From a virus, in IMG/VR virus record IMGVR_UViG_3300031227_000032, positions 8,517-72,516 of that record: a stretch of 64,000 nt of DNA; one strand, written 5' to 3'. Below, one piece after another: positions 19,726 through 52,606 of the stretch. Every line of letters begins with the position of its first letter. The stretch's first letter is position 1. The notes below the pieces were generated by a model. It was not told the origin of the DNA, made no database searches, and saw only the letters and a program-made list of their open reading frames with translations. Both the position numbers and the translations under genes were made by a program.

Positions 19726-19842
19726 TCGCCCTCCTGACGTACCGTCGCCGTATCCACCGCTTTGATTTTAGCGGCAGATCGTCAAATTCCCCTGACGTAA
19801 TCGGCATAGCCATGATGATCCTCCAGACCATTAACAGTCCGA

Positions 19843-20514
19843 TCAATTAGACTCTGTGGTTTTGCTCATCGAAACATCTGGCATTATAGCATGGACTTCG
19901 CCAGGTGTCAAGTCACCCCGCATAGCATTACGGGCGGCTGCGATTTCTTCAGCTAGCCAGATCATGCCGATGTCCTCTTCAGCAGGCGTGAACGTTGCAT
20001 TCGGCAGCGTAGCCAGCAGCTTATTCAGCAGTGCGGTCGTGGTGATAATCTCGCCATCGTCAAACTGGATATCGCCACGCACCATCAGGTAGTGAGCAAT
20101 GCGGATCAGGTAGCCCTCTGGCACGCCTGACTCGTTGACGCGATAGAACACCGCAGTCATAACGGGCGATACACGGCTGATACCTGTCCAGATATCAACC
20201 CAGTCACCATCGCTCAGATTCTCGGCGGCTTTTTCTAGCCCGTATGCAAACAGCACATCCTTAACGGCGTCATCCGGATCGTCGCCCATCGAAGCGCTGC
20301 GCAAGTCAGTCAGCAGCCCGCCGATTTCGGCTGTGATCATCGGCAATCCGTCTGGTAAATCCACATCGAGCGATCTCAGAATGCCAGCGGCAATCGGAAC
20401 ATACTCGTGAATGATCGTGGCGATTTCCTCATACATACAGTACGTGTCTTCTTTAGCTACCGCTGGAGTTGCCAGCAGGATAGCTGCAATGCAAATTATA
20501 ATGATACGCTTCAT
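19843..20514 (-). CDS. Secreted hypothetical protein; may extend to 19831 by UGA recoding (...N-U-S-D-C)
   Basis: Signal peptide MKRIIIICIAAILLATPAVA; ends TGA-TCG-GAC-TGT-TAA. Confidence 0.75.
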   Translation of the reverse strand: MKRIIIICIAAILLATPAVAKEDTYCMYEEIATIIHEYVPIAAGILRSLDVDLPDGLPMITAEIGGLLTDLRSASMGDDPDDAVKDVLFAYGLEKAAENLSDGDWVDIWTGISRVSPVMTAVFYRVNESGVPEGYLIRIAHYLMVRGDIQFDDGEIITTTALLNKLLATLPNATFTPAEEDIGMIWLAEEIAAARNAMRGDLTPGEVHAIMPDVSMSKTTESN

Positions 20515-20525
20515 AGTACACTCCT

Positions 20526-20741
20526 CTACTTAAAAACAATACCTGCCGTCACAGCGACTAGCGTTAGAATCGTTGTAGTTAAAATCCAGTTCACGCGCAA
20601 TTCCAAAGCACATAACCTCTTTTCAGTGTAGTCGTTTGTGGTTTCCTGACTTGCGCGAAACTTTTCCATCTCGCCCATGTCTCCGCTCATTTTACCTAGC
20701 TTTTCCTTTACCCAATCTTCAGTTGCAACGCCGTTGCCCAT
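20526..20741 (-). CDS. Small membrane protein (holin/XhlA-like)
   Basis: Coiled coil plus C-terminal transmembrane helix. Confidence 0.55.
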   Translation of the reverse strand: MGNGVATEDWVKEKLGKMSGDMGEMEKFRASQETTNDYTEKRLCALELRVNWILTTTILTLVAVTAGIVFK

Positions 20742-20761
20742 GTCAACCCCTACAGTGTAGA

Positions 20762-22438: not shown

Positions 22439-22472
22439 ACATCCACCTCCTCTACTGCGCTACAGATGCACA

Positions 22473-23105: not shown

Positions 23106-23106
23106 G

Positions 23107-23523: not shown

Positions 23524-23537
23524 GTGTTGATAGCCTC

Positions 23538-23867: not shown

Positions 23868-23875
23868 ATCACCTC

Positions 23876-31857: not shown

Positions 31858-34800
31858 TTAATAACCCGTCGTGCGCATTTGCCCACGTAGTGTATTGCCG
31901 CGCGATACTTGCTGTAACCGTTGCGCTTTCGTGACGTTCAGCATTTCTGACAGCAGCCGTTCGCGTTCATTGTTAGTATCGAATACATAGATCGGATTGC
32001 TGGTAGACTCGCCACGGTTTTTCTTGCCGCCGAATAGTCCGCCGAATAGTGCTGATATTCCAGCGCCCAGGAATCCGCCGATGACAGGCCCGAAGCCGCC
32101 CATGCTACCAAAGCTGGACGTGATAGCCTGTGTGAGTGGCTGTACAATCGCGTCCGCCACGCCTGACCAATCGTTAGTGCTTACCGCTGTGAATAGTGCA
32201 TCGCCTAGCTGCGCGGTGAATAGCGTAGCCGTCTGCTGTGCTTGCTGTGCGATTTGCTCAGTAGCTCCACCAGTAGCGCCCAGACCGGACGCATCAGCCG
32301 TGCCTCAACCGCCAGGGCCGCAAGCCGCATTACTTTCGCCGTATGTAGGATCATACCCACCGGCCATAATGCCGATACCGCGCATCTCCAAGCCGAGTGC
32401 TGCAGCCCCAACGCCCATGTGTGATTGTTGAGCAACAGCGCCTAGTGCCCGTCCGCCAATGTCAGCAGGGGTGTTACGAATCCAACCTGCGCTATCACTA
32501 CCACCCGACTGGGCGGCCACATCAGCGGCTAGACTTAACGCATCATTAACTGTCCGCTTGGCCGTTGCCAGTGAGCCTATTAATGATCGCTCGATAGCAT
32601 CAGTAACCGCCATAATCGAAGCCACTGATGCGGTCTGCATTGCAGTAAACGCACTGACCATTTCAGTATGCAGATCAGTAACGCGCTGTAAGACACGTGG
32701 CACGGATTCATCTACAGTGTCATAAATCCCTTTCCACATGTCAGGCCAGATTGAATGGCCTACAATGAGATCCCACGCCCATTGAAATGGAGCCACTACG
32801 TTCTTTGCGAATGTCTCGATCTCTTTAACGACCTTGCCTACAAATTCAGTTACGGTAGCCCATATGCCATCCCACAAGCCAACCCAGAACTCCGTTATAT
32901 CAGTATTGACGTTTTCGAACCATTCAGTAATATCATCAATGAAGCCAGATATAAACTCGCCAGTATTAGCAGCAATTGTATCAGCAGTATCGGCGATAGT
33001 TTGCCATGCTCCCGACCAATCGCCAGTAATCAATTTCAGCCCAACCTCGAAGATACCACCGACAATAGCAAGCGCGTTTTTAACAACAAGTTTGATCGCA
33101 TTCCATACGGTTGAAATGACAAGCTTAATGCTTTCCCACACAATGCTAACAGCGGCCATGAACGGCGGCCCCCACTTATCCCATATGATCTTGATAGCAT
33201 CCAACGTAACGCTAAATGCTTCTTTAATCAGTGGCCAGTTTTTCATCCACCAATCAATGATCGGCTGTACTAACTCCAGCGCCTCAGCGCCAAGCCAACC
33301 GAATACCTCACCGGCTTTATCCCTTATGGCAGTGAGTGTCGGACTGATTTTATCCTTGACTTCCTGAATCTTTTCTGCGAACGCGCTAGCCTTTTGTTCA
33401 CCCTCAGTCAACGGCCCGACGAATCCGTCAGCAGGTGCTTTGCCTGTCAACGCATCCCATGCTGCGCGAACTGTTTCAATCCTTTCGGCCAGAACTTGCG
33501 CGCTAACCTCCGCCTCACTCAATGGCCCGATAAATCCCGACTGAATCTTATCCGGCCCCTGCCCAGTCAATGCCAGCCATGCCGCCTTGACAACATCCAT
33601 AGCCTGTGCTATCTGCGGGAAGTTGCTGTCAGCAAATGATTTAATCTTACCCCAGTTGGCGATGATCAACGCACCGCCCGCCACAATAGCAGCTACAGCA
33701 ATCCCGATAGGGCCAGTCATGGCGGTAAATGCAACACCAATACCTGGCGCGGCAGCTACTATGTTCCCAATGATCATCAGCAACGGGCCAAGTGAAGCTA
33801 CCACTCCGGCGGCAATCACTCCGAAATTCAATAATACTGGATTGGTTTTTGCCAGATTTTGCACGAACGGTATTGCGGCTTCAACTAATGAGACAAAGCC
33901 GTCAAGCAGTCCGCTGTCTGAGATTGACAAGCCTAAGCCCTGCACTGCTGAACTGAGTCGCGTCAATACCGGCGTTACTTCTGTAGCGATCCGCGCAGCC
34001 GTGCCAGCCGAGGCCAGGTTCGCCTCAGATAGTCTTTCTAGTGCCGCGCTGCCCTGATTCACCAATGCGGCCATAGCTGGCCCTGCACGCTGTCCAAAAA
34101 TAGTCATAAGCTCAGCGGTTCTTTCCACTTCGCCCATGCCTTCCAATCCCTCTTCAAACTGCGCGATGATATCAACAAGCGGCAGCATAGCACCATCCGC
34201 ACCTTCAATACTAACTTTGAGTTTCTTAAGGGATGCAGTGGCCTTTGCGCCTGGATTGATCAGTAGCGATATAGCGGTCTTGAGTGACGTACCCGCCATG
34301 CTTCCCTGAATACCAGCGTTACCTAACAGACCAACAGCGGCAGCGACCTCTTCAAACACAAGCCCAGATGATGATGCAATCGGGCCTACGAACTTCATTG
34401 ATTCGCCAAGCATCCGCAGATCAACATTGGCGCTAGTGAATGTGTTAGTCATTACATCCGCTACGCGCGTCATTTCAGTGGCCTCAAGGCCGAAACCAGT
34501 CAGGATGTTAGACGCAATATCGGCAGTAGTCGCTAGATCAATCTGACCAGCGGCGGCAGCGTTCAACACACCGGGCAACGCGCCGATAATATCCACAGCC
34601 TTGAAGCCCGCCATTGCGAGGAAGCTCTGTGCATCAGCGGCTTGCTTGGCTGTAAACGCCGTGGTCTCGCCAAGCATTTTGGACTGCTTACGTAGCTTCG
34701 CAAACTCTTCAGCGGTGGCACCTGACAATGCACGCACGCGATTCATCGAGTTCTGAAAGTCAATGCCGAGCTTAATGATCGCAGCGCCGACGCCGACGAT

Positions 34801-34986
34801 AGGCAACGTCAAGCCCATCGTCATTTTTCTGCCGACGCCCGCCATCTGACTGCCCGTCTTTTTCCACGCGGCGGCTGTCTTTTGCGCAGCAGTGACGCCC
34901 TTTTTACCAGCGTCAGTCAGCGGCTTGCTGAGCTTGTCTTTCAGCTCTAGTACAACCTCTAAGATTTTCTGATCAGTGTTTGCCAT
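31858..34986 (-). CDS. Tape measure protein (TP901-like core) with in-frame UGA at 32305-32307 (893 aa if stopped, 1042 aa if read through)
   Basis: FTAKQAADA..FLAMAG, GIQGSMAGTSL, W/F periodic repeats; the frame stays open past UGA into a typical Gly-rich TMP C-terminus (GFLGAGISALFGGLFGGKK). Confidence 0.9.
32276..32307 (-). promoter_or_regulatory. UGA plus SECIS-like hairpin in the TMP gene
   Basis: TGA-12 nt-GCGTCC-GGTCT-GGGCGC. Confidence 0.7.
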
Positions 34987-35706
34987 TCTTTTTACTGCTC
35001 GCCTTTTCTTTAGCCGCGTCAAGCTCGGCTATTTTTCTGTCAATCACGCCCATCGCAGATATGTACCAAACAGGTTGATCCTCAAGCCCGCCTGCACGGA
35101 ATGAGAATCCATTTTTGTAATGAGCATATAGCCCATTCAAGTAAACGCTCAGTTCGGATACATCTTTCCACGGGCAGTGGGTAGCATAGATAGGCTCTAT
35201 GCAATCCCCCACCCGTCGCTCGTCAATCTGCAGCATCCCATCTGTACAACCTACTCTACAGTTAGCTTCGTCAAAGTTGCATCCGGAACATCGGTCTCCG
35301 ATTCCGTGCTGGAGTTTGATGTAAAATTTACATCGGCAGTTTCCTCCTTATTCAGCCCGCCGATAGCCTCACTGACTGTAAGTGCGATATTCGTAATCAA
35401 CTCCAGCGGAAGGCGCTTCATTGATGCCTTGTCAATAACATCCTCACGCTCCCCGCAAACCTTGACCTTCTCGAACGTCGGTTTGAAATCCTCACCGTCG
35501 TCTTGCAATCCTTCGATGTCAGTCAACATCAACTTAACCAGCATGTAATTCAGCTCGCCGCCGTTCACTTCGCCGTGCTTATCAGTGACATTGCCGATCA
35601 GCCAGAATTGCATACGGTTATCAATGTCGCGGATTTGGTAGCGCACACTATCATCGCATTCAGCGGTGAACCATCCACCGGTTACTTTTGGGGACAATAC
35701 TTGCAT
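34973..35706 (-). CDS. Tail assembly chaperone pair (gpG 35251..35706; gpGT by -1 frameshift to 34973)
   Basis: A-AAT-TTT slippery site at 35323-35329; the -1 frame is open into ORF 34973..35236. Confidence 0.85.
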
Positions 35707-41048: not shown

Positions 41049-41913
41049 TTAGCTCATCATCCACAACGCGCACTATGGGTTGCTCAGGATCATTGGTTGC
41101 GAAATCATGCACCATCGGATGTTCGCCCGCTTCTGGATGTTCTGCCATCTCCCATGGCGGCTTATCCGTCACTGTCATTATTGATTTAACTTCGCCAATC
41201 TTTACGGGCAAACCATCATCATCCCTGAAACACAGATCGGCTATTGGCTTACGTTTCATCGCATAGACTTCCATCATGTTACCTGGCCATGCGAAGTTGT
41301 ATTTGAATCCTAACAGCTTGCCGATGAACTTAAACCAATCCCACGTATCAGCATAAGGCGTTCCGTGATATGGCAACTCAATATCTGTAATCACCATGCC
41401 GACATGTCGCAAGATGTTACACAGTTCACGTTCGCCGAATGTCACATAGTTATACGCAGGATCGAGTGCCGGTAAGTCACCGAATAGCCTATACACTATG
41501 CTGTCAGTATTGGGCGTTGCGAGGAATATCATGTATCCCCCTGGACGCAAGCGTTCAACGCATTCGCTGATCACTGTTAGCGGATTGTCAAGGTGCTGGA
41601 TAGTGCCACGGAATACTACAACATCGTAGTAATCGTAGCGGTATTTATACGGATGTACTGTGATGCCTTTGCTTGCAGCAATCTCGCGCGCATGGTCTGA
41701 TACTTCGATGCCGTGCTTAGTCCACGTATCGGGGAACATCTGCAGAAAATCGCCGATACCACAGCCGTAGTCCAGAATGCGATGCCGCTTATCGAAGTCA
41801 GGTATCAGCGTTTCGATACGCGCGATCTCCTGTCGGTACATCTCCGCGCGCTTCGGATCGTCGCCGTATGCCGAGAAGTAGTCGGCGTTGTATAGCTTTT
41901 GGGGGCTAGTCAT
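41038..41913 (-). CDS. Class I SAM-dependent methyltransferase (glycan-cluster type)
   Basis: ILDYGCGIG.F, GIEVS, IQHL.NP, LRPGG...TPN. Confidence 0.85.
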   Translation of the reverse strand: MTSPQKLYNADYFSAYGDDPKRAEMYRQEIARIETLIPDFDKRHRILDYGCGIGDFLQMFPDTWTKHGIEVSDHAREIAASKGITVHPYKYRYDYYDVVVFRGTIQHLDNPLTVISECVERLRPGGYMIFLATPNTDSIVYRLFGDLPALDPAYNYVTFGERELCNILRHVGMVITDIELPYHGTPYADTWDWFKFIGKLLGFKYNFAWPGNMMEVYAMKRKPIADLCFRDDDGLPVKIGEVKSIMTVTDKPPWEMAEHPEAGEHPMVHDFATNDPEQPIVRVVDDELNGD

Positions 41914-41923
41914 GTTTACTCCC

Positions 41924-42145
41924 TTACTCTACTCTGCGCTTGACTCCAGCGCAATACACATAACGTGGTTTATCACTGCTGTACATGCCGTCAAACTCCG
42001 CGCGTGATTCGGGCTTGCGCAGTGCGGCCTTGCGGCGTTTCAGCTTGTCAATCACGTTATCAACCTCATGCCACGAGCGCGGGTCGATGCCGCCTAAGCT
42101 GAACTCCAGATCAGAGATTGTAGCGTCAATGTCGCGTTTAGTCAT
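41924..42145 (-). CDS. Small hypothetical protein
   Basis: Coupled ORF. Confidence 0.6.
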   Translation of the reverse strand: MTKRDIDATISDLEFSLGGIDPRSWHEVDNVIDKLKRRKAALRKPESRAEFDGMYSSDKPRYVYCAGVKRRVE

Positions 42146-42408
42146 CGCAGACTGCTCTCAGTGATGTTCATTTCCTTTGCGAACTCCAATATATCCGTCG
42201 TGATGTTCCCCGCCTCATCTGTGCAATTGTTAGCAACGGCGGTTCGCAAGTCACCCTCAAGCCGATTCAGCCGCGCCTCGCCGTCATTAACCCATTGCGT
42301 TGTTTCGTCAATGCCAGGGACATTGCCAGCCCACTCAATCATACCACGTTTATCATCAATGGTGGCATGCATAGATGCGATATAACGCTCAATTAAATTA
42401 TTATCCAT
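42142..42408 (-). CDS. Hypothetical protein, leaderless moron
   Basis: Promoter 42415..42443 TTGACA-17-TATGAT, ATG 6 nt later. Confidence 0.7.
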   Translation of the reverse strand: MDNNLIERYIASMHATIDDKRGMIEWAGNVPGIDETTQWVNDGEARLNRLEGDLRTAVANNCTDEAGNITTDILEFAKEMNITESSLR

Positions 42409-42447
42409 ACCACCATCATACCACACTACCGAGCATTTGTCAACCCC

Positions 42448-43242
42448 TCATCGCGCATCCTGTTTCCATGCCGCGCGTTTCGCGCAGGTATCCAGTGCAT
42501 CAGCTTGGGCAATGTTCGCCGCCCCGATCTTGTCAACCTGCGCCGCCGCCTCGTTTGCTGTATCATGCACTGAGAATGTAAGCCCATATCCGCCGTGCCA
42601 AACAAGTTCATACCAAATGGCGCGGTAACGGGTTTCGTCTAATGCGTTCGTCTCGGCGATGATCTCTGGCAGTATGCGTAGGAAACGCTGATGGTCAGGC
42701 ATTTTAGTATATGGCGTCTCACTGTAATAATCAATATCATTGGCGTGGCTTACCTGATCAATGTGTTCGGCATGTTCGAGCGCCGCCAGCATGCTTTCAA
42801 ATCCTAACCTTTTGATAACCGCCTTTTTCCAGTCCCAGCAACTGCCGCCATCAGTGAAACCTCAACCGCCAGATGATGATGATGTTCCTTTCTGCACACC
42901 TCCCCAATAAATATCATATTGATCGCCGTCTTTGATTATCCATGCTGGCTTATGCAAATCACTCAATGCGCATTTAGCAACATATGTGGTACGTTGTGTA
43001 TTGCATAATGAATATCGGATAGCGTATATTGGGAGCGCACATAATACCAATATACACAGGGCCATAATGACTATACATATCGTTGATCCCACACAGGCGA
43101 CTTCAGACATCTCATGCCCATCTGCCGCAGATTGGGTAATGTATGCGTATTGTGGCCCTGCCACTTCATCACACGAACAAGTTAGCGTAACTATCAGCAA
43201 TATACTGATTAACGCAACTGCAAATTGCAAATGTTTGTTCAT
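42448..43242 (-). CDS. Membrane/lipoprotein moron with in-frame UGA at 42862-42864 (joins ORFs 42862.. and 42448..)
   Basis: Leaderless promoter 43249..43277; frame open across SSGG*GFTDGGSCWDW...ESMLAALEH. Confidence 0.6.
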
Positions 43243-43274
43243 GCTTACACTATACCACACTCCGCGCCGTTTGT

Positions 43275-43754
43275 CTAGTACCACGTATCTCTTTTCTTTG
43301 CAATGATATCATCTTGCTTAGCCTGCAGCCTTTGGGCTAAATCCTGCTCCGCTAATTGCCGTGTGGCGTGAATAGTTTGAACCACTTCACACCATTCATA
43401 CTGCTCTGACCATGAAGATGTACCACAGCCGTCTATGGTATCACTGCCGTGCGTGTAGTGATTCGTTTCAGACTTTAACTCATATACGCACACTGCGTAA
43501 CGCTGCTCGCCTAGCTCATTTTGCTCAGTTTCAATCCACGGGTCTCTGGCAAGGTCTTTCACTCTGACGGCGCGTTTACGGGCGCAATAACGGATTATTG
43601 CAATCCCACCGAATATTGATAATACCATTATCCCTGATGCGACTACTATGTACAGCAGATTGCCAGACGCGAGCGGTGGTATCAAGCATAGCGGACATAC
43701 CAATAAAAGCATTCCGATTATAATAGTTTCATCACTCATGCCATATGTGTCCAT
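43275..43754 (-). CDS. Two-TM membrane protein, leaderless moron
   Basis: Promoter 43761..43789; two hydrophobic helices. Confidence 0.7.
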   Translation of the reverse strand: MDTYGMSDETIIIGMLLLVCPLCLIPPLASGNLLYIVVASGIMVLSIFGGIAIIRYCARKRAVRVKDLARDPWIETEQNELGEQRYAVCVYELKSETNHYTHGSDTIDGCGTSSWSEQYEWCEVVQTIHATRQLAEQDLAQRLQAKQDDIIAKKRDTWY

Positions 43755-43785
43755 ACTACCATCATACCACACTATCGCGCTTTTG

Positions 43786-45024
43786 TCAACCCCAGACCAC
43801 GCATTCATCACGCATCCTGTTTATCCACGTCAGCAGTTGCCAGTAATCCAACTCCAGCCCATGCGCAATATCCAGCACTGACAGCCTGCCGTCCAGCAAA
43901 TCGAGCACGTCGGCGTATTTCAGATTGAGTTGCCGATCCTGTCGCCAGTCTACCCATAGCCCATGCTTCGATAAACAGATCGGCCCTTGCCCCGTGCGTT
44001 GCGGATACCAGTCGCTATCCATCATATCCAGCAGATCAGCAACGCGGTTAGCGGCGTCCATTATCAAGCTGGGGTGTAGGCGCTCCGCAGTGTCCAGGCT
44101 CGTGTGATAGCCGTAATATGGCACCTCACCTTTCGCCCAGCAACGCGCACGGCTTATACTGACAGCTGGGATGCCGACGTTGTTATACACCTTTTCATCA
44201 TTGCTTACAACGGTGCGGTATGGCTCGGCCTCATCACAGACCAGCACGCCAGCTTTGTCAATCAGCGATTCATCGAACGGCGAGTGCTGTAATACTAGCC
44301 TGTTATCATTGCCCAGCATATCCAGCGCGATAGCGTAGCGGATGTTATGCTGCTCGTTCGCCAAGTATGCGATAGTGCCGATGGTCTCAGGTAGCCACAG
44401 AAATCTCAACCCATACTTACGCGGCGTATCGCGGAGTCGCTTCACAAGCTCGACCATCGCAACGCAACCTGACGCATCATCGTTCGCCTGCATCGGATGG
44501 CAGACGTGCGCTGTCAGCACAATCTCGGCGTCAAGCGTGCCAGGTAGGTACACCTCGCCGATGGCAAGTTCGCCGTCGCTAAACTCGCTGTCGATAAGCA
44601 CGCGGTATTCGTCAGCATCGAACTCGTGTAGGCGGTCATGCTGAATGCAGAATGCCCACGCTGGTTCGTAGTATGAAAACTCAAACGGGATACCCGCTGG
44701 GCAATCCTCACGACTGCGCACATGTTTCATCAGCTCGTTATGGCTGATCGCAGTATCGACCGCCGTGCTGTAGCTCATCACGTGCAGCGGATGGTCGTCA
44801 GTGGATACGATGATACTACCGTCGGGACGTGCGATGTATGCTGTGCGGCACTCCCACTTCGGCGGTATCGTCCAGTCCCATACCTCACTGCCGGTCGGGT
44901 AGCGATGTATTTGCAGCTCCGGTAGGCGTGCGGCAATCGCGCCAAGTGCCGTATCGTAGCCGTCTGAGATGAGGTCACGGCGGTATGCGCTGATTTCGTG
45001 AAGTAGGTTTTGCATAGTTGACAT
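43786..45024 (-). CDS. DUF4910 aminopeptidase-like polysaccharide biosynthesis protein
   Basis: DWTIPPKW, PLHVMSYS, HVCHP.QANDDASG, PETIGTIAYL, YHTSLD, C-terminal winged helix. Confidence 0.85.
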   Translation of the reverse strand: MSTMQNLLHEISAYRRDLISDGYDTALGAIAARLPELQIHRYPTGSEVWDWTIPPKWECRTAYIARPDGSIIVSTDDHPLHVMSYSTAVDTAISHNELMKHVRSREDCPAGIPFEFSYYEPAWAFCIQHDRLHEFDADEYRVLIDSEFSDGELAIGEVYLPGTLDAEIVLTAHVCHPMQANDDASGCVAMVELVKRLRDTPRKYGLRFLWLPETIGTIAYLANEQHNIRYAIALDMLGNDNRLVLQHSPFDESLIDKAGVLVCDEAEPYRTVVSNDEKVYNNVGIPAVSISRARCWAKGEVPYYGYHTSLDTAERLHPSLIMDAANRVADLLDMMDSDWYPQRTGQGPICLSKHGLWVDWRQDRQLNLKYADVLDLLDGRLSVLDIAHGLELDYWQLLTWINRMRDECVVWG

Positions 45025-45052
45025 TTAGCGTGATGTGTGGTATAGTGATGGT

Positions 45053-45238
45053 ATGAGGATTATCAAGATAGTCGCTGCATTCTTTTTATTCTGCGTGCTG
45101 GCGTCAATCCCAATATCATTACAACCTGAGGTTGGCGGCTATCTCAACGCATTAGTCGCAACAATTGCCGTGATGGTTGTAGGATTGCTGATCGTCGTTC
45201 CGGTCGTGCTATTGCTGGCATCAGCAAGCGACCACTAA
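45053..45238 (+). CDS. Small two-TM membrane protein, leaderless antisense moron
   Basis: Promoter 45018..45046 TTGACA-17-TATAGT. Confidence 0.65.
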   Translation: MRIIKIVAAFFLFCVLASIPISLQPEVGGYLNALVATIAVMVVGLLIVVPVVLLLASASDH

Positions 45239-45243
45239 TACCG

Positions 45244-46890
45244 CTACTTATCCGTCCCTGGTAGTAACTGTTTCACCGCTTTATTCAGTCTGCACAGCGA
45301 GCTTGGCCCGTAGTGTCCTAGTGATATACGCGGATCGAGACTGCCCAGCACCATATTCATTCCAGCAGCCATACTACCAAATGGTTTTTGCGGTGGCCCT
45401 GTAGGCGGTTCCTGGTAGTCATAGTAATGCGTGCGGTTATTGCAGTAGTCTAGTCCGATCATGTGTATCGTCTTGACGTTCGGAAAACTCGCCGCAAGCT
45501 GTACCGCTCTGGATGAAATGCCGCCTGCGCCGTTCAGATTGAACGCCTCAAACTTCGCATCATTACGTCTAGGCGGTAGATGCTCGAACTCGTAATGATC
45601 GAACGGATAACCGCCTGCCGCCTCCAGTAGCTTATGCCCGATCAGGTGTACATTGCCCCGTAGGTTGCGCCAGATACGCGGATACTTCCAGGCATCAATG
45701 TTCATCACTAAAAACAGATCAGCGTCCACAACTCCGCAACCTGCGTTAACGGAGATCACGGTATATTTGCTCAAGTCTACTTTGTCGATGTACAACGCGG
45801 TAGGCCCACTGCCGACGACCAGCACCTTATCGGTAGGCTGGAAATCCTCTGCGAACTTCTCTATCTTGCCAAGGCACTTACCCTGGACGTTCATCGGCGG
45901 CGATGCGTTAGGCTTGCTCAATGTCGTTTTATGCATGTCACCATATGTTATCAGCATATCGCGTTCCTGCTGTAGCCAGAACTCCGCCTCGTATGCTGAA
46001 AACTTGCTGCTCTGAATGCGCGATAGTGTGGGCTTTAACGCTCGCAGGTAATCGCCCGTTACAACCTTAGCGCCCTCATCTAAATAATCCAGTAACAGAT
46101 TGCCGCCTGGATGCTCGTGCAACATCGGCACGCCTGCGTTATAGACCGGCACGCTTGCCATAAGTGACTCATACGCGGCAGTAGAATTGATAGTGACTGT
46201 CGCATCAGGCCATCCGAAACTCAGCTTACCCTTGTCAACCTTCACGCCGTCTATCGGATGCTGTAAATACGGATCGTTGTAGACCTGCTCGCCGTTTACT
46301 TCGCGTGATTCCTTGACTCGATTCAGCGTCTTAGGATGCGGACGGTATTTAATCTCCGCGTCAGGTAGTATCGTGCGAACGTCTTTAACTAACCGCAGTG
46401 AGTCATACCCCCTACTGCCGTATTGCAACGCCTGATCGCCCGTCACCTGTCCAATGATCAACACCTTGCGGATAGGCTGGCCTGTCGCTATTGCCGCCTC
46501 CGCCGCCATGCGCTGCGGTGAGGTGACGTAACGTAGGTAGGTATCGTCGGTGTATAAGCCCCAATCGAAGCGTGACGTTTCGTAGTGGTCTACCACGCCT
46601 AGCCCGTGATGCCAGTAGTTTATGCCAGCGTGACGGAATAGCCGCGAACGGAAATCACGATGCCCTGAATACTCACTACAGAATACAGTATCAACACGGT
46701 GGTCTAAGCATTGTGCTAACAATTCCTCATCGGTATACGCAAGGTCATCCAGCACATACACCTGGCCGAACGCGCTGAACATCGGACGTAACCTGTTGCT
46801 CCGGATATGCGGCACCATGTGAGTCGTTACCGCCACGATACGGTTAGCAAGCGGTGTGCTCTGGTCAGTTGTAGAGTGTAGTAGTTGCAT
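45244..46890 (-). CDS. Fusion of a KpsS/KpsC-like glycosyltransferase and a DUF115/Maf-like domain
   Basis: GQVTGDQAL, YRPHP, VTINSTAAYESL; then VVGSGP..ISVN..IGLDY...HYY. Confidence 0.75.
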   Translation of the reverse strand: MQLLHSTTDQSTPLANRIVAVTTHMVPHIRSNRLRPMFSAFGQVYVLDDLAYTDEELLAQCLDHRVDTVFCSEYSGHRDFRSRLFRHAGINYWHHGLGVVDHYETSRFDWGLYTDDTYLRYVTSPQRMAAEAAIATGQPIRKVLIIGQVTGDQALQYGSRGYDSLRLVKDVRTILPDAEIKYRPHPKTLNRVKESREVNGEQVYNDPYLQHPIDGVKVDKGKLSFGWPDATVTINSTAAYESLMASVPVYNAGVPMLHEHPGGNLLLDYLDEGAKVVTGDYLRALKPTLSRIQSSKFSAYEAEFWLQQERDMLITYGDMHKTTLSKPNASPPMNVQGKCLGKIEKFAEDFQPTDKVLVVGSGPTALYIDKVDLSKYTVISVNAGCGVVDADLFLVMNIDAWKYPRIWRNLRGNVHLIGHKLLEAAGGYPFDHYEFEHLPPRRNDAKFEAFNLNGAGGISSRAVQLAASFPNVKTIHMIGLDYCNNRTHYYDYQEPPTGPPQKPFGSMAAGMNMVLGSLDPRISLGHYGPSSLCRLNKAVKQLLPGTDK

Positions 46891-46893
46891 AGG

Positions 46894-47637
46894 TTATCTA
46901 GGCTGGTCTGCTTGCCATTGTCTGATGCTCGCTTCGTTGCGTGGCTGAGTGTCCGCTATCCATTGCGCGAGTGCTGGGTTAAGCGGGCCTTTGTGACGTT
47001 TCATCCAGGTGTAGGGATCGCGGGCATGCTTGGAGTAATTACACCGCTGGCACGCTGGTATGATGTTATCTTGTGTGTATGGCCCATCATTGTCTTGTGC
47101 AATGAAATGTTCCTGATGAAACTCTTTACCTATTTCTGATTCTGTCCGATTGCAATATGCGCACCGGTGATTAAACAGCATCCATGTATCTTGTCGTTGT
47201 TTTGGTGTCAGTGTGTCCGGCAAGTTGGCTTTGCGCGCTCTGCGACGTTGGTCTTTCATCCGGCATAGTTCTCTGCCCCTGTCAGTTGCGCGGTATACTT
47301 TACCATATTTAGCAGTCCTGTCTTTATGAACCTCGCGCCAGATCTTGATGCGATCATGATTTCGCTCATATCGCGCCTTTCTACATGCGGCAATATTCTC
47401 TTTGTTTGCTTCACAGTATGCCTTGCGAGTTACGGCAATCTTGTCTTTGTAATCTACACGATATGATTTGTCACGTGCGGCTTTGCGGTCTTTGTTGGCT
47501 TCATAGTACGCCTTGTCAGACATCTTCATGCACATTTTACATGCGCTCTGCAATCCGTCCCGTTTCCCTTTATGCTTATAAAACTCGCCAACAGGCTTCA
47601 CTTCCCCACACTTGCTGCATCGCTTAGTCTTACACAT
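46894..47637 (-). CDS. HNH homing endonuclease, leaderless
   Basis: N-terminal CSKC...CKMC; CAYC...EHFIA...NIIPACQRCNYSK; promoter 47644..47672. Confidence 0.88.
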   Translation of the reverse strand: MCKTKRCSKCGEVKPVGEFYKHKGKRDGLQSACKMCMKMSDKAYYEANKDRKAARDKSYRVDYKDKIAVTRKAYCEANKENIAACRKARYERNHDRIKIWREVHKDRTAKYGKVYRATDRGRELCRMKDQRRRARKANLPDTLTPKQRQDTWMLFNHRCAYCNRTESEIGKEFHQEHFIAQDNDGPYTQDNIIPACQRCNYSKHARDPYTWMKRHKGPLNPALAQWIADTQPRNEASIRQWQADQPR

Positions 47638-47711
47638 AGCTACAGTATACCACGGCTAGCGCGGAATGTCAAGTGGTTATGAATACTACACCGCGCAAAT
47701 GTCAAGTGAAT

Positions 47712-47751
47712 GAAACGGGCGACCCTAACGGCCCCAACATCAGAGCCGCCC
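47712..47751 (-). terminator. Long hairpin after the capsid genes (terminator or processing site)
   Basis: CGGGCGGCTCTGATG / CGTTAGGGTCGCCCG stem followed by TTT. Confidence 0.6.
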
Positions 47752-47799
47752 GCGCAAAGGAGTTAATAGTAGTAACCTCGTAAGGCTACAGGTAGATTG

Positions 47800-49556: not shown

Positions 49557-49587
49557 AGATTCCTCCGATGAGTAAAGTAAATGTGTG

Positions 49588-50325
49588 TTACAGTTTATTT
49601 GCAACAGTGGTAGCGGTGTCTATCAGCGAGTGCAACATGCGCGACTCAGCTTCATTAGTAGCGGCTTGAGTGGATTCATCCGGCTCAAGTGCTGGCGCTT
49701 CAATGTCAGCTTCGGTACTGCCGTGCCCGTCGCCGTTGTCTGCAAGGTATTCGTCAAGCTGCGTAGCATTCGGAATGCTCACGCCTAAATCTTGAAGTAG
49801 CTGGATTGTAAACCTAACTTGCGCTAGATTATATGCGGATCGCATTTCATTGACTCCAGCACTCGGCCCAGCCTGCCAGTCTGGAGGTGTAATCGAATAT
49901 TCAAATAGTCTCGCCTCTTTAACATGATTAACTTGCTTATCGTCAGTCTCCATTTGCATAGGTTGGAAGCCGACGGATAGACCAATCTTACGATCAGCCT
50001 CATGTACCAACTTCATATATCCCCACGTCTCTTTAGCGATGGCGTGAGTCTCGATACTCAGCTTCGCACTGACTGCTAGGCCGTGCAGGTCTTCCGTTGC
50101 TGACTGCCCCAATCCAATCGGCGGTCTGCCAGAATATGAATCGTGCATATACAGCACTGATACCTTGCCGCCATTCTCCGATAGCGTCTTTTTATATGCG
50201 CCAGGGTCTACCATTTCGTTGTAGCATTCAATCAGTTCATTGAACACACTGGCGTATCCGTCAAACTCTCCTGTATCGCGCACGTCGGCTACGCGCATTT
50301 TAACGGTGTAATAATGTCTATCCAT
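49588..50325 (-). CDS. HK97-type prohead protease
   Basis: FDGYASVF, GAYKKTL, LYMHD, EDLHGL, GLSVGF, LFEYS. Confidence 0.92.
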   Translation of the reverse strand: MDRHYYTVKMRVADVRDTGEFDGYASVFNELIECYNEMVDPGAYKKTLSENGGKVSVLYMHDSYSGRPPIGLGQSATEDLHGLAVSAKLSIETHAIAKETWGYMKLVHEADRKIGLSVGFQPMQMETDDKQVNHVKEARLFEYSITPPDWQAGPSAGVNEMRSAYNLAQVRFTIQLLQDLGVSIPNATQLDEYLADNGDGHGSTEADIEAPALEPDESTQAATNEAESRMLHSLIDTATTVANKL

Positions 50326-50362
50326 GTTTCCCCCGTGGCGGGTAGCCGCCGTGTTTATCCTC

Positions 50363-51250
50363 TTAAGTTTTCGGGCGTAATTGTTTATCACCTGGTAGCA
50401 TCGGTGACAATCCGCAACGGCATTGAATGTCAAACGCAGCCTTGCCGCTCAGCATCGGCCCTTCGATGAAACCGACCTGATTGAATGTATCAAACAGCCC
50501 GTCCGCATCCGTCACGGCTCCGTCCATGACGATGTGACTGTACATGTCTTTGCCACCGCCACGTACTAAGCTATCGCGTGCCGTTAGCCACTCTGAACGT
50601 ATCACAACATCCAAGTATTCGGCGGACTGTTTGTAACCTTCAAGCTCTGCTTTAATGTCCGCACGTCCGACTTCGGTTCTAGCAATAGCGTTGCTACGCG
50701 GTTGTGTGATCGCATCAGTCTTGCCTGACCATTCGGCGTATTTCTCACTGATTGCTTTCGATGTAACCTTGAAGCCCTGATCTGCAGTATCAGCGATGAT
50801 GACCTCTAACTTTGCCGCGCTGGTTTTGTCAATCAGGTTAGAGCGTATATGTAAATTCTCAGTAAGCCACTTCCGGAAGTCAGGGCGATCAGGTGCGAAC
50901 GCCGGTAGCTTTTCCGCTGCCAGTACTGCAACCTCATCGACTGCCAACTGCCCGAACTCAGCTACTAACTCAGCTTGCAATGGGCCAATGATCGCAGCAT
51001 ACGCGGCATTTTCCACTTCAGGATTCAGCAACGGCTTAGGCTTATCAGCGCGTGTCTGTGCGGTCTTGAGTACCCGCGCCTCCTGACCTACCCAGTATTT
51101 TTCAATGCCCGCCTTGTAGCGTTCCTGCCACGGCTCGCGTATCTTATCCTGATCGGCTAATCGCTCCTCACGATCAGCCAGCGTTGGATACTTACTGCTG
51201 GGGAATGTAGGCTCATCGCCTATATCGTCATCGACCCGATGACTTGGCAC
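50363..51250 (-). CDS. MuF/SPP1 gp7-like minor head domain, in frame with the portal across one UGA
   Basis: RSNAIARTEV, EWLTARD..VR...H..MDG, IQCRC. Confidence 0.88.
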   Translation of the reverse strand: MPSHRVDDDIGDEPTFPSSKYPTLADREERLADQDKIREPWQERYKAGIEKYWVGQEARVLKTAQTRADKPKPLLNPEVENAAYAAIIGPLQAELVAEFGQLAVDEVAVLAAEKLPAFAPDRPDFRKWLTENLHIRSNLIDKTSAAKLEVIIADTADQGFKVTSKAISEKYAEWSGKTDAITQPRSNAIARTEVGRADIKAELEGYKQSAEYLDVVIRSEWLTARDSLVRGGGKDMYSHIVMDGAVTDADGLFDTFNQVGFIEGPMLSGKAAFDIQCRCGLSPMLPGDKQLRPKT

Positions 51251-51256
51251 GCCTCA
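51227..51256 (-). promoter_or_regulatory. UGA plus SECIS-like hairpin at the portal/MuF junction
   Basis: TGA-10 nt-GTCATCG-GGT-CGATGAC. Confidence 0.65.
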
Positions 51257-52606
51257 TCCGCAGGTTTCCAGATACGAACGCATAGCGCGCGCCGCCTCTT
51301 TTGTTTCATTCTCTTCGGTATCGACTCCGATCTCCTCTGGCTGGAGTTGTTTCAATGTATCTGGCAGTCTGATATACGGCTTGTTCAACGGGTTATCCGG
51401 ATCGTCAGGCTCGATCATTTCAAGCCCGCTGGCTTCGCGCTTTTCGTTCGGGGTCATCCAATCGCTGTTAGCAAGGTTGTGCACTCGTTCCGTTACGTTA
51501 TCCTGCAGCGCGTTGATTCCGCTTACAATCGGTAACAGCTTTACATCATCTTCAAGCCCCATCTTAGGTAACACAAACTCTGCAAACTCCTCGCGGAATA
51601 AGCGATGCAATGGCAATACTGTATTCTCATAGAGGAATCGTTCAGCGGACTCGACATTGTTATACGTTGATGATTTGTCATCGCCGACTAACTGTGACGG
51701 CACGCCCAGCGCCGCGCAGATATGCCGCATTGTCACACCAGCGCCGCTAGTCCAGTCCATCTCTTTCGGGCTATGCGCGAGTGCCATATAGTTAGACTTC
51801 TCGCCGTCAATGAAAGCCGTCGCGCCTGCGTTAGATGCACCGCTGAACTTATCGTTGTAATCCTGCTCAATGCGTGCGCGCACTTGCGGAGTCAGTGAAC
51901 TCCAACCCGTAATCTGCAACACACCGCCTGGTACTGCACTATTAGTAAGTAGCTTAGAGTTCCAAGCTAGCTGTAGGTTGCTGGTATCAATGTCCGTCGC
52001 TGCAGCATTCAATGGTGATAATCCAAACATCGGATGCGCAGGATCGGTGAACTTCACGTTATACATTTCGTCAGGCGTCAGATAGCGTTTATTGCCAATG
52101 CCTGTTTCGATAACGTACCGACTGACTGTGCGATTATCTGTGGTTTCAATCGTCACGCGGTCAGGCAATTCGAGATACATTTCAGGTGCGGTCTTGGGTT
52201 GCGTCTTGCCATTAGTCGTGCGCTTGCCAATGCCGATACCTTCGATGTATGTGATACCGGCAAGGTGAAGCTGATTAGACCACAGCGCGATGAACTCGTG
52301 ATAGCCTTGATTCGGATTGAAGCGCTGCACTAAGTTGTACAACGGCTTGACGCGCGGGGCTATATCATCCTGCGTTACAATCTCGCCCTCATACTCGATG
52401 CCGATTGGTACTGCGCAAAGGCCGTTGCCGATTACCCGCAAGCAGGCATATACAATCGGATTGTGCCGATACGCCTCTTTGTAAAACTCATTGAATCGGC
52501 GCGCGCGAAACTCAGCACTGACACCGTTAGTATCCTGAATCGTCAGAACCTTAGCGCGCAACATCGACCGTAGTATGAAGTTTTGGAATCGTTGTTTAAG
52601 GTTCAT
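51254..52606 (-). CDS. Portal protein (HK97 family)
   Basis: NPIVYAC, FNP, GLSPL.AA, ICAALGVP..LVG, STYNN, MTPNEKRE..GL. Confidence 0.94.
   Translation of the reverse strand: MNLKQRFQNFILRSMLRAKVLTIQDTNGVSAEFRARRFNEFYKEAYRHNPIVYACLRVIGNGLCAVPIGIEYEGEIVTQDDIAPRVKPLYNLVQRFNPNQGYHEFIALWSNQLHLAGITYIEGIGIGKRTTNGKTQPKTAPEMYLELPDRVTIETTDNRTVSRYVIETGIGNKRYLTPDEMYNVKFTDPAHPMFGLSPLNAAATDIDTSNLQLAWNSKLLTNSAVPGGVLQITGWSSLTPQVRARIEQDYNDKFSGASNAGATAFIDGEKSNYMALAHSPKEMDWTSGAGVTMRHICAALGVPSQLVGDDKSSTYNNVESAERFLYENTVLPLHRLFREEFAEFVLPKMGLEDDVKLLPIVSGINALQDNVTERVHNLANSDWMTPNEKREASGLEMIEPDDPDNPLNKPYIRLPDTLKQLQPEEIGVDTEENETKEAARAMRSYLETCG

What the first reader, a model, noticed from the sequence alone, without database searches (positions are those of the whole stretch)
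19816..52606. Candidate selenocysteine (UGA + SECIS) recoding system across phage virion genes
Seen: in-frame TGA codons at 51254 (portal to MuF), 32305 (TMP) and 42862 (membrane moron) all read Gly-UGA-Gly (GGW TGA GGY), have a Cys within 2-8 residues, keep the frame open into sensible protein, and are followed by a hairpin with a G/GU-containing loop starting 18-19 nt after the UGA. A fourth, weaker case is at 19843. Nearly all other late genes I checked end in TAA/TAG; the exceptions (34973, 43786 and a few coupled overlaps) are explained by overlap with another gene or a promoter. Known: bacterial Sec insertion needs UGA plus an adjacent 3' SECIS hairpin bound by SelB. Inference: the phage borrows host SelA/B/C/D to make selenoprotein structural components, or uses Sec-insertion efficiency as a selenium-dependent switch or stoichiometry control. 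I know of no description of this in phage morphogenesis genes, but I could not search the literature.
Basis: partly seen in the sequence, partly recalled or inferred. Interest (0 to 1): 0.95.

Follow-up and report, generated by a model that had tools for sequence, protein, structure and literature searches.

The report
Phage virion genes read through UGA
Three structural genes of an uncultured salt-lake phage continue past an internal UGA "stop" that is followed by an RNA hairpin like the bacterial selenocysteine signal, so the phage probably builds selenium-containing or read-through forms of its tail and portal proteins.

Summary
Three of the four reported in-frame TGAs are real (portal/MuF 51254, tape measure 32305, small membrane ORF 42862). 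The fourth (19843) is wrong: more stops follow at once. The TGAs stand unchanged in contigs of independent runs.

Translation through the tape-measure TGA is well supported. The 48 start-less codons after it score as coding. A distant relative (L011) has a TGA at the equivalent place, and protein homology begins upstream of any start codon in both phages. Two further relatives (L014, L083) carry the same C-terminal domain in one uninterrupted ORF. The nearest portal relatives aligned are all fused portal-MuF proteins.

The hairpins put R-G-U at +22..+24, as in six gammaproteobacterial formate dehydrogenase SECIS elements (0.5% of TGAs pass by chance). The only cysteine of each TGA-bearing tape measure lies 5 or 9 residues before the TGA; the two TGA-free relatives have none.

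Best reading: SECIS-directed selenocysteine insertion (about 0.55), unproven. There is no Cys/Sec column, the host is unknown and the E. coli bulged U17 is missing. Rival: stop-hopping or near-cognate readthrough, since synonymous codons flank all four UGAs.

This scan has noted phage selenocysteine candidates on other DNA. My four literature searches on the topic found no such case in print.

The parts
51254..52606 (-). Portal protein ORF (450 aa, PF04860) ending at the in-frame TGA 51256-51254 (context TGC GGA TGA GGC; Cys at -2).
50363..51253 (-). MuF-like head morphogenesis domain, in frame with the portal through the TGA (296 codons, TAA at 50365-50363). The only nearby start is a GTG two codons after the TGA, with GAGG just 1 nt upstream of it.
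   Evidence: phrog_2468; phrog_2662 'portal protein', profile positions 467-708 of 717. The five best non-self hits (P0003-P0007, 30-43% identity) and 3 further ones aligned in A1 are single fused portal-MuF ORFs.
51227..51243 (-). Perfect 7-bp hairpin GUCAUCG[GGU]CGAUGAC at +14..+30 after the portal UGA, with GGUC at +21..+24. It lies within a ~20-aa segment (SYLETCG-U-GVPSHRVDDDIG) that 7 of the 8 aligned relatives lack.
32305..35022 (-). Tape measure protein main ORF (PF10145) ending at the in-frame TGA 32307-32305 (GGC GGT TGA GGC). Its only Cys lies 5 residues before the TGA.
31858..32304 (-). Tape measure C-terminal extension of 148 codons, with its TAA abutting the next gene's ATG. The first 48 codons hold no start codon, yet they score as coding in frame 0. 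The extension is homologous to the post-TGA part of the L011 tape measure and to the C-termini of the uninterrupted L014 and L083 tape measures.
32276..32292 (-). 6-bp hairpin GCGUCC[GGUCU]GGGCGC at +16..+32 after the tape-measure UGA. GGUCUG at +22..+27 is identical in letters and offset to E. coli fdhF.
42862..43242 (-). Small Cys-rich membrane ORF ('gene B', ATG 43242). It is driven by its own extended -10 promoter (43277-43249) and ends at the in-frame TGA 42864-42862. It shares CTGGCGGTTGAGG, then 5 nt, then CTGATG with the tape-measure site.
42448..42861 (-). In-frame continuation of gene B (137 codons). An independent ATG (42792) with a moderately placed AGGA exists, so read-through is not required here. 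No relatives were found.
42836..42847 (-). Weak 4-bp hairpin CGGC[AGUU]GCUG with A22 G23 U24. It is not part of the minimum-energy fold.
19843..19845 (-). Ordinary TGA stop.

Best explanation
The phage carries a short recoding cassette at three places in late genes. The cassette consists of a nearby Cys, a small residue, UGA, the same small residue, and then, 10-14 nt later, a hairpin whose loop shows R-G-U about 20 nt after the UGA. Most ribosomes probably stop at the UGA. A fraction are directed by the hairpin to insert selenocysteine through the host's SelB and tRNA-Sec, and then continue.

This would give a portal-MuF fusion beside plain portal, a full-length tape measure with its conserved C-terminal domain, and a long form of a small membrane protein.

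Shown: the UGAs are real; the sequence after the tape-measure UGA is translated as part of the tape measure; the site is conserved in a distant relative; the hairpins match the bacterial SECIS in place and in loop letters.

Inferred: SelB binds these hairpins; selenocysteine is the residue inserted; the neighbouring Cys pairs with it as a selenenylsulfide.
For: (1) Translation through the tape-measure UGA. The 48 start-less codons after it score 0.396 log2 LR per codon in frame 0. True coding windows score 0.38 +/- 0.15, and no off-frame window reaches 0.396. BLASTP homology to the L011 extension (32% identity, E 2e-11) starts at residue 918, before the first possible start at residue 955. In L011 it starts at nt 16584, before the first start at 16632. 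L014 and L083 hold the same C-terminal domain in one ORF without a stop.

(2) Conservation. The L011 phage (portal-MuF 32% identical) has a TGA at the equivalent junction.

(3) SECIS likeness, tested with a criterion taken from six known SECIS elements. These are E. coli fdhF, fdnG and fdoG plus three other gammaproteobacterial Sec formate dehydrogenase genes, all with RGUCU at +22..+26. The criterion is R22-G23-U24 in a 3-7 nt loop on a stem of at least 4 bp. It is met by 17 of 3,131 TGA triplets of this genome. The tape-measure and membrane sites meet it exactly, and the portal site meets it one base closer. GGUC at +21..+23 in the loop of a stem of at least 6 bp occurs at 27 of 144,912 positions and at 2 of 3,131 TGAs, and those two are the portal and tape-measure sites. 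In L011, 1 of 682 TGAs meets the 6-bp version, and it is the tape-measure TGA. The stems of the two tape-measure hairpins differ in sequence but keep the same place and loop. Published description from passages read: a stem of 6-8 bp with a conserved loop G about 20 nt after the UGA (PMC4605307); a 17-nt stem-loop 11 nt from the UGA with U17, G23 and U24 (PMC8659212).

(4) Cysteine. Our tape measure has one Cys in 1,053 residues, at -5. L011 has one in 769, at -9. The TGA-free L014 and L083 have none. The portal-MuF has a Cys at -2 (1 of 6) and the membrane ORF at +8 (1 of 10).

(5) Cassette nature. The Cys-UGA-hairpin stretch is extra sequence relative to 7 of the 8 aligned portal-MuF relatives and relative to the TGA-free tape measures. 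Sites 2 and 3 share 13 identical bases, then after 5 variable bases 6 more, in unrelated genes.
Against: No relative has Cys aligned with any of the UGAs, because the TGA-free relatives lack the whole segment. The standard Cys/Sec signature is therefore missing.

The host is unknown, so its Sec machinery could not be checked. The contig holds no tRNA-Sec, SelA or SelB-wing match, and it is only 67% complete by CheckV.

None of the phage hairpins has the bulged U17 that E. coli SelB needs.

The membrane-ORF hairpin has only 4-5 pairs and is absent from the minimum-energy fold.

Folding energies are not unusual against shuffles. Given the peptide sequence, synonymous recoding yields such a hairpin fairly often: portal 6%, tape measure 2-4%, membrane ORF 16%.

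Synonymous codons flank all four UGAs (GGA/GGC, GGU/GGC, GGU/GGU, AGC/AGU). The chance of this is about 5.5e-4 even allowing for local composition. Selenocysteine insertion does not predict this; stop-hopping does.

The UGAs lie in flexible linkers of structural proteins, not in known redox sites.

The hairpin and Cys criteria were partly shaped after the sites had been seen.
Confidence: 0.55

Rival explanations
1. SECIS-independent recoding. The ribosome pauses at a poorly terminated UGA and one of two things follows. Either the peptidyl-tRNA hops from the codon before the stop to the synonymous codon after it (a 'stop-hop', in which 9 nt give one residue), or a near-cognate tRNA (Trp or Cys) reads the UGA. 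Either way, a minor long form arises beside the major short form. The hairpin would be a general pausing element or a coincidence.
For: Synonymous codons flank the UGA at 4 of 4 sites, including the relative's AGC UGA AGU. The chance given local composition is about 5.5e-4. [quoted passage not shown] Passages of PMC7246954, citing Pierson 2016 and Bjornsson 1996, say that peptide release is slow after C-terminal Gly or Pro and that the last two residues modulate termination at UGA. TGA is rare as a stop in the late block, as expected if UGA is leaky late in infection. All the evidence that the tape-measure UGA is translated through fits this rival equally well.
Against: It does not explain the R-G-U loop at +22..+24, at the SECIS distance, at 4 sites. 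It does not explain the single Cys beside the UGA in both TGA-bearing tape measures, nor its absence from both TGA-free ones. At the portal site the GGA and GGC codons are usually read by different tRNA-Gly species (recalled). Stems starting 10-14 nt after the stop are further away than typical frameshift or readthrough stimulators (recalled).
Confidence: 0.27
2. No recoding. The TGAs are plain stops. MuF and the second half of the membrane ORF start on their own (GTG 51250 by termination-reinitiation; ATG 42792 with AGGA 9 nt upstream). The tape-measure tail is a separate small protein or a dead remnant. The shared contexts are gene-boundary sequences (stop plus GAGG Shine-Dalgarno).
For: In-frame neighbours are common: 25 of 130 ORFs. 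TGAGG contains a Shine-Dalgarno core. The same 22-letter pattern occurs at an ordinary stop/SD/ATG junction in other phage contigs (L031 and L043). Many phages have separate portal and MuF genes. Gene B's second half has a usable ATG.
Against: There is no start codon for 48 codons (44 in L011) after the tape-measure TGA, yet that stretch is coding-like and conserved at the protein level between two phages. The domain is part of one polypeptide in L014 and L083. The GAGG before the MuF GTG is only 1 nt away. The ATGs placed 8 nt after GAGG at sites 2 and 3 open ORFs of only 29 and 15 codons (read). This view explains neither the hairpins, nor the Cys, nor the matched codons.
Confidence: 0.1
3. 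General reassignment or suppression of UGA in late infection, as in code 4 or code 25, or a phage suppressor tRNA carried on the missing third of the genome. UGA might then be read as Gly within Gly runs.
For: TGA stops are depleted in late genes. The contig is 67% complete, so a tRNA could have been missed. Three of the UGAs sit in Gly runs, one base change away from GGA.
Against: 50 of 130 called ORFs end in TGA, and only three in-frame TGAs are found in about 35 kb of late genes, all with one special context. No tRNA was found by ARAGORN in the whole contig, and Rfam found nothing in the window. The relative's site is Ser-UGA-Ser, not Gly.
Confidence: 0.04

Closest known systems
Bacterial selenoprotein genes with an in-ORF SECIS bound by SelB (prototype E. 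coli fdhF, fdnG, fdoG)
   Same: An in-frame UGA is followed, after 10-14 nt, by a hairpin of 6-7 bp (two phage sites, plus L011) with G-U in the loop at +23/+24. The tape-measure site shares GGUCUG at +22..+27 with fdhF.
   Different: No bulged U17. The UGA lies in flexible linkers of virion proteins, not in an enzyme active site. No Cys-containing homolog at the column. Three sites occur in one small genome, which carries no Sec machinery in the part held. Synonymous codons flank the UGA.
Synthetic 'stop-hops' in E. coli and translational bypassing of phage T4 gene 60
   Same: Matched codons lie on both sides of a stop codon, Gly in three of the four cases as in gene 60 (GGA take-off and landing: abstract of bioRxiv 10.1101/2024.12.09.627546; matched codons around a stop: passages of PMC5009743).
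   Different: The gap is a single codon rather than 50 nt. No take-off stem-loop containing the stop and no nascent-peptide signal was identified. According to PMC5009743, no natural stop-hop is known.
Ratio-setting recoding in phage morphogenesis genes (tail assembly chaperone G/GT -1 frameshift; Q-beta A1 UGA read-through) - recalled, not tested here
   Same: One gene gives a major short product and a minor C-terminally extended product that is needed in few copies.
   Different: Here there is a UGA with a SECIS-like hairpin rather than a slippery heptamer or a bare leaky stop. For the tape measure, the extended form carries a domain that relatives always include.
Stop-codon reassignment in phages (TAG to Gln, TGA to Trp in late genes)
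   Same: A stop codon is read as sense in late genes, and that codon is depleted as a late-gene terminator.
   Different: Only three sites, each with a dedicated local signal. TGA still ends 50 of 130 called ORFs. No suppressor tRNA was found.

Membership tests
Bacterial SelB/SECIS-dependent selenoprotein gene | In-frame UGA inside a translated reading frame | tested here: met
   Tape measure: the start-less gap scores as coding, protein homology crosses it in two phages, and L014 and L083 have a single ORF. Portal-MuF: the nearest relatives are fused. Membrane ORF: the frame is open, but an independent start is possible.
Bacterial SelB/SECIS-dependent selenoprotein gene | Hairpin just 3' of the UGA, stem of 6-8 bp, conserved G in the loop about 20 nt downstream (PMC4605307, passages) | tested here: met
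   Portal 7 bp with loop GGU at +21..23. Tape measure 6 bp with loop GGUCU at +22..26. L011 6 bp with loop AGGU at +21..24. The membrane ORF has only 4-5 bp, which is not met there.
Bacterial SelB/SECIS-dependent selenoprotein gene | E. coli-type SelB determinants: G23 and U24 in the loop, and a bulged U17 (PMC8659212, passages) | tested here: not met
   G23/U24 are present at the exact offset at the tape-measure, membrane-ORF and L011 sites, and one base closer at the portal site. No phage hairpin has a bulged U17. SelB specificity in other hosts may differ; this was not tested.
Bacterial SelB/SECIS-dependent selenoprotein gene | Homologs with Cys at the UGA column | tested here: not met
   8 portal-MuF relatives and 2 TGA-free tape measures were aligned. 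None has an alignable Cys, because the segment is absent from them or unalignable. The membrane ORF has no relatives.
Bacterial SelB/SECIS-dependent selenoprotein gene | selA, selB, selC and selD available in the cell | not testable with these tools
The contig itself has no tRNA-Sec, SelB-wing_3 or SelA match. selD was not searched. The contig is 67% complete.
Stop-hop / translational bypass | Matched (synonymous) take-off and landing codons flanking a stop | tested here: met
   GGA/GGC, GGU/GGC and GGU/GGU and AGC/AGU in L011. The chance given local composition is 5.5e-4.
Stop-hop / translational bypass | Product lacks the stop position (9 nt give one residue) | not testable with these tools
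   Needs peptide mass spectrometry.
Stop-codon reassignment (code 4, code 25 or suppressor-tRNA phages) | Many in-frame TGAs, TGA not used as a terminator, and a suppressor tRNA | tested here: not met
   3 in-frame TGAs. 50 of 130 called ORFs end in TGA. 0 tRNAs.
Fused portal-MuF proteins (phrog_2662; P0003-P0011) | PF04860 portal domain followed by a PF04233-like MuF domain in one polypeptide | tested here: inconclusive
   Both domains are present, collinear and in frame, but a UGA separates them. One polypeptide forms only if the UGA is recoded.

The most novel reading that the evidence does not exclude
A bacteriophage uses its host's selenocysteine machinery at three UGA-hairpin cassettes in virion genes. 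The tape-measure cassette is old enough to be shared with a distant relative. The selenocysteine sits beside the protein's only cysteine, forming a selenenylsulfide (or an inter-subunit diselenide) that can exist in the reducing cytoplasm. This would be a covalent or redox latch in the tail and at the portal, and it would make virion assembly depend on the host's selenium status. The matched codons around each UGA may give a stop-hop fallback when selenocysteine is not delivered.
Probability: 0.4. Interest if true: 0.92.

Novelty: new variant of a known kind. Interest (0 to 1): 0.8.

Why it matters
My four literature searches on the topic turned up no selenoprotein of a virus of bacteria and no natural stop-hop (judged from listings; PMC5009743, from passages). 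Either reading would therefore be a first in print.

It would show that phages can set the ratio of short and long structural proteins, or add a selenium-based chemical group to the particle, through a portable 60-nt cassette. It would also tie phage assembly to host selenium metabolism.

There is a practical point as well. Gene callers split such genes: the protein database held this portal as 450 aa and this tape measure as 893 aa. Tape-measure lengths and portal architectures are therefore misread in metagenomes.

The system is directly testable with a short reporter construct.

Tried and rejected
Fourth site (19843): rejected, because in-frame stops follow at once.

Sequencing error: rejected.

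Global TGA reassignment: rejected.

Rfam at gathering scores over the window found 0 matches; as far as I recall, Rfam holds no bacterial SECIS family.

Near-identical phages: none for the portal region.

The tape-measure tail against phage records gave only weak Tsukamurella hits to the pre-TGA part. The L011 tail against phages gave none.

The large protein database held only the phage's own entry for the tape-measure C-terminus and nothing for its tail among longer proteins.

The paralog argument for gene B (note e1-6198566) was weakened. The N-terminal similarity comes from a repeated promoter that is translated in frame, and the rest is E = 0.008.

Gene B against 1.84 billion representatives gave its own two halves and one spurious tandem-repeat protein.

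The shared 22-letter pattern in viral contigs gave 15 hits. None was an in-frame read-through of this kind, and one pair was an ordinary gene junction.

Host: not found. The genome-contig scan with the portal-MuF alignment gave 5 distant hits in unrelated phyla. The terminase gave about 25% identity to phages of many hosts. The tape-measure tail alignment rang in 0 of 401 gammaproteobacterial genomes searched, and without a positive control that says little.

Building a SECIS covariance model was dropped. Of the 150 matches listed for 201 gammaproteobacterial genomes, only 3 formate dehydrogenase matches carried a TGA.

I could not find the bSECISearch rules in the passages read, so I took my own criterion from six known elements.

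RNA: no RNA holder listed.

No structure or complex job was run, because none would bear on the question. Supplements were not requested.

Full report
WHAT THE DNA IS. The window is the last 64,000 bases of a single 72,516-base virus contig. IMG/VR classes the contig as linear and CheckV puts it at 67% complete. Seven runs labelled salt-lake metagenome, each from its own study, hold a third or more of the sampled words; one of them may be the source. The late genes lie on the minus strand. They include a terminase, a portal (PF04860), a MuF-like protein, an HK97-type capsid (PF05065) and a tape measure (PF10145). ARAGORN finds no tRNA in the window or in the whole contig. Rfam gives no match at gathering scores. 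The phage has no close kin among deposited phages.

THE OBSERVATION. Three of the four sites are as described. On the minus strand the portal ORF ends ..ETCG at TGA 51256-51254 and continues GVPSHRVDDD.. for 296 codons into the MuF domain. The tape measure ends ..NAACGPGG at TGA 32307-32305 and continues GTADASGL.. for 148 codons, up to a TAA that abuts the next gene's ATG. A small Cys-rich membrane ORF ends ..SSSSGG at TGA 42864-42862 and continues GFTDGGSCWDW.. for 137 codons. All three read GGN TGA GGY. The fourth site (19843) is wrong: in-frame stops follow after 3 and then 21 codons.

The TGAs are not assembly slips. Contigs of independent runs bridge each site with no difference: 32305 by X2, 42862 by X4 and X5, and 51254 by X2, X4 and X5. 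The caveat is that only 40 of 163 variant rows were printed; none of those lay at the sites.

WHAT IS NOT SPECIAL. Reading on in frame past a stop is common. Of the 130 ORFs in my greedy call, 25 have 60 or more open codons after their stop, behind TAA and TAG as well. GGNTGAGGY occurs 6 times against 3.0 expected. The 60 nt after each TGA fold no better than shuffles, with z = -0.98, +0.78 and -0.01. The TGA at 42448 (Arg-TGA-Gly, 101 open codons) and the TGA at 43786 lie inside copies of a repeated TTGACA-17-TATGAT promoter and need no further explanation.

IS THE UGA TRANSLATED THROUGH? For the tape measure the evidence is strong.

(a) Between the TGA and the first ATG, GTG or TTG in frame lie 48 codons. 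With a codon model trained on 19 long genes, they score 0.396 log2 LR per codon in frame 0. That is the mean of true coding windows (0.38 +/- 0.15), and no off-frame window reached it; the other two frames score -0.33 and -0.56.

(b) L011 is a metagenome contig fetched because its portal-MuF is 32% identical. It has a homologous tape measure: the N-termini match (MAN-EQEILEVVLK.. against MANTDQKILEVVLE.., E 0.003). That ORF also stops at an in-frame TGA (L011 16497-16499) and then runs on for 180 codons. The two post-TGA stretches are 32% identical over 143 aligned columns (E 2e-11). In both phages the alignment begins upstream of the first possible start codon: at residue 918 against the GTG at 955 here, and at nt 16584 against the GTG at 16632 in L011.

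(c) Two further relatives, L014 and L083, carry the same C-terminal domain at the end of one uninterrupted tape-measure ORF.

The tail is therefore part of the tape measure. In two lineages it can only be reached through a UGA.

For the portal, the five best non-self hits in a 5.8-billion-protein search (P0003-P0007, 30-43% identity, 95-99% coverage) are single fused portal-MuF proteins, as are three more distant ones aligned with them. Many further hits carry both Pfam domains, and so does Bacillus phage Silence. Here the UGA lies in a ~20-residue stretch (SYLETCG-U-GVPSHRVDDDIG) that 7 of the 8 aligned relatives lack. A GTG two codons after the UGA could serve for reinitiation, so read-through is likely there but not required.

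For the membrane ORF, an ATG with AGGA 9 nt upstream lies 23 codons after the UGA, and the protein has no relatives. Apart from the open frame and a coding-like 23-codon gap (0.33 log2 LR per codon), the case there rests on the shared cassette.

THE SIGNAL. Sites 2 and 3 lie in unrelated genes but share CTGGCGGTTGAGG, then 5 variable bases, then CTGATG. The portal site reads CCTGCGGATGAGGC.

Each UGA is followed by a hairpin. Counting the U of UGA as 1, these are: portal G14-C30, 7 perfect pairs, loop GGU; tape measure G16-C32, 6 pairs, loop GGUCU; membrane ORF C18-G29, 4 pairs, loop AGUU.

To have a yardstick not fitted to the phage, I read known elements. E. coli fdhF has GGUCU at +22..+26. 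E. coli fdnG and fdoG, and three Sec-type formate dehydrogenase genes from two other gammaproteobacterial genomes, have AGUCU there. The tape-measure site has GGUCUG at +22..+27, the same letters at the same offset as fdhF.

The criterion is R22-G23-U24 inside a 3-7 nt loop on a stem of at least 4 pairs (G-U allowed). It is met at 993 of 144,912 positions and at 17 of 3,131 TGA triplets of this genome. The tape-measure and membrane sites meet it, and the portal site meets it one base closer. GGUC starting at +21..+23 in the loop of a stem of at least 6 pairs occurs at 27 of 144,912 positions and at 2 of 3,131 TGAs, and those two are the portal and tape-measure sites.

The L011 site has ACCGUC[AGGU]GGCGGU with G23 and U24 at the exact offset. 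It is the only one of the 682 TGAs of that locus to meet the 6-pair version; 11 of 682 meet the 4-pair version. The two tape-measure stems differ in sequence but keep their place and loop.

Published descriptions agree with this geometry: a stem of 6-8 bp with a conserved loop G about 20 nt after the UGA (PMC4605307, passages), and a 17-nt stem-loop 11 nt from the UGA with U17, G23 and U24 as the fixed positions (PMC8659212, passages).

Against this, no phage hairpin has a bulged U17. Gene stops in general pass a looser version (G-U with G at +22..+24) no more often for TGA (4 of 50) than for TAA (3 of 41) or TAG (5 of 39). Given the peptide, synonymous recoding gives a stem as long as the observed one in 6% of trials (portal), 2-4% (tape measure) and 16% (membrane ORF). 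That null is conservative, because these linkers are unconstrained.

THE CYSTEINE. Our tape measure has one Cys in 1,053 residues, 5 before the UGA. L011's has one in 769, 9 before the UGA. L014's (701 aa) and L083's (613 aa), which lack the UGA, have none. So across four homologs, Cys and UGA come together or not at all. The portal-MuF has 6 Cys, one of them at -2. The membrane ORF has 10, one of them at +8, which is not unusual. A lone Cys next to the recoded codon is what a Cys-Sec pair would look like. Neither read-through nor hopping predicts it.

THE MATCHED CODONS. All four UGAs lie between synonymous codons: GGA/GGC, GGU/GGC, GGU/GGU and, in L011, AGC/AGU. Even allowing for the Gly- and Ser-rich surroundings, the chance is about 5.5e-4. 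This is the defining feature of the 'stop-hops' seen in synthetic constructs. The review PMC5009743 (passages) says that no natural case is known, and notes that some supposed read-through might be hopping. Peptide release is also reported to be slow after C-terminal Gly (PMC7246954, passages citing Pierson 2016). Slow release would favour any competitor of RF2, SelB included. I cannot decide this point by computation.

WEIGHING. Recoding of some kind is, in my judgement, about 0.85-0.9 likely for the tape measure. Among mechanisms, selenocysteine explains the hairpin's place and loop letters and the Cys, but leaves the matched codons unexplained. Hopping or near-cognate read-through explains the context, but leaves the hairpin and the Cys unexplained. 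The latter two coincidences are the less likely, so I put selenocysteine first (0.55), SECIS-independent recoding second (0.27), plain stops third (0.10) and general suppression last (0.04).

What is missing for the usual proof: a Cys/Sec column, since the UGA-free relatives lack the whole segment; the host; and any sel gene, since none was found on the 67%-complete contig for tRNA-Sec, SelB-wing_3 or SelA, and selD was not searched.

HOW IT WOULD WORK. Most ribosomes end at the UGA and give the 450-aa portal, the 905-aa tape measure and the 126-aa membrane protein. The SelB-tRNA-Sec complex, held by the hairpin at the mRNA entrance, decodes a fraction of UGAs. That gives a 747-aa portal-MuF, a 1,053-aa tape measure with the conserved Gly-rich hydrophobic tail, and a 264-aa membrane protein.

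For portal-MuF this would turn a protein that is fully fused in relatives into a portal ring carrying a few MuF domains. For the tape measure the long form is presumably the functional one, since relatives always include the domain. The roles of the Sec-Cys pair (selenenylsulfide latch, inter-subunit bond, redox trigger) are inference only.

PRIOR WORK. Four searches of the held library listed no paper on a phage selenoprotein, judging by titles and abstract starts: 'selenocysteine, bacteriophage, SECIS, selenoprotein', 29 papers, 15 listed; 'selenoprotein, phage, in-frame UGA', 9 papers; 'selenocysteine, phage genomes, recoding, UGA' from 2018, 3 papers; and 'bSECISearch', 25 papers, 10 listed.

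Earlier notes of this scan describe selenocysteine candidates in other phages on other DNA. I treat them as leads, not support. They show that the kind of finding is not unique within the scan. What differs here is three cassettes in one genome, in the tape measure and at the portal-MuF junction, plus the matched flanking codons.

Noticed in passing
window 43789-43761, 43277-43249 and 42443-42415 (minus strand): Three copies of a strong extended -10 sigma-70-type promoter (TTGACA or TAGACA, 17 nt, TG-n-TATGAT or TATAGT). Each has an ATG 6 nt after the -10 hexamer, which suggests leaderless moron transcripts inside the head module. The TGA stops at 43786 and 42448 lie inside two of them. Because the repeats are translated in frame, they mimic N-terminal protein similarity.
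   Followed up: partly
window 38936-47637 (minus strand): A block of non-structural genes sits between the capsid and tail genes. It holds a capsule-synthesis-like protein, a DNA N6/N4 methylase (PF01555), a SAM methyltransferase, a DUF4910/DUF2172/peptidase M28-like protein and an HNH endonuclease. Contigs of other organisms in the same metagenomes match the methylase region at 85-95% identity.
   Followed up: no
window 32294 and 42851 (minus strand): At both sites 2 and 3, GAGG of TGAGG is followed 8 nt later by an out-of-frame ATG (the shared CTGATG), which is a textbook ribosome-binding layout. The ATGs open ORFs of only 29 and 15 codons. The second ends 9 nt before the ATG at 42792. They could be coupling mini-ORFs or part of the recoding signal.
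   Followed up: partly
L011 16497-16499 (plus strand): A related uncultured phage has its own in-frame TGA in the tape measure (Ser-TGA-Ser), with a SECIS-like hairpin and a single Cys 9 residues upstream. Its portal-MuF is one ORF without a TGA.
   Followed up: yes
L007 5644 and L027 10799: A Gly-TAG-Gly junction (GGA GGC TAG GGT GAT) lies between open frames of 941 and 814 codons in a contig labelled Neomegalonema. It looks like an ordinary stop/Shine-Dalgarno/GTG junction, but it was not examined.
   Followed up: no
window 20526-55760 (minus strand): TGA ends 7 of 38 late ORFs against 43 of 92 elsewhere (Fisher p=0.0028; without the three recoded sites, 4 of 35, p=0.0002). This rests on a rough greedy ORF call. 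It could reflect high expression or selection against a leaky UGA.
   Followed up: partly
window 34973-35706 (minus strand): Two small ORFs lie just upstream of the tape measure (35251-35706 and 34973-35236, the latter overlapping the tape-measure start). They sit where tail assembly chaperones with a -1 frameshift usually lie. No slippery site was looked for.
   Followed up: no
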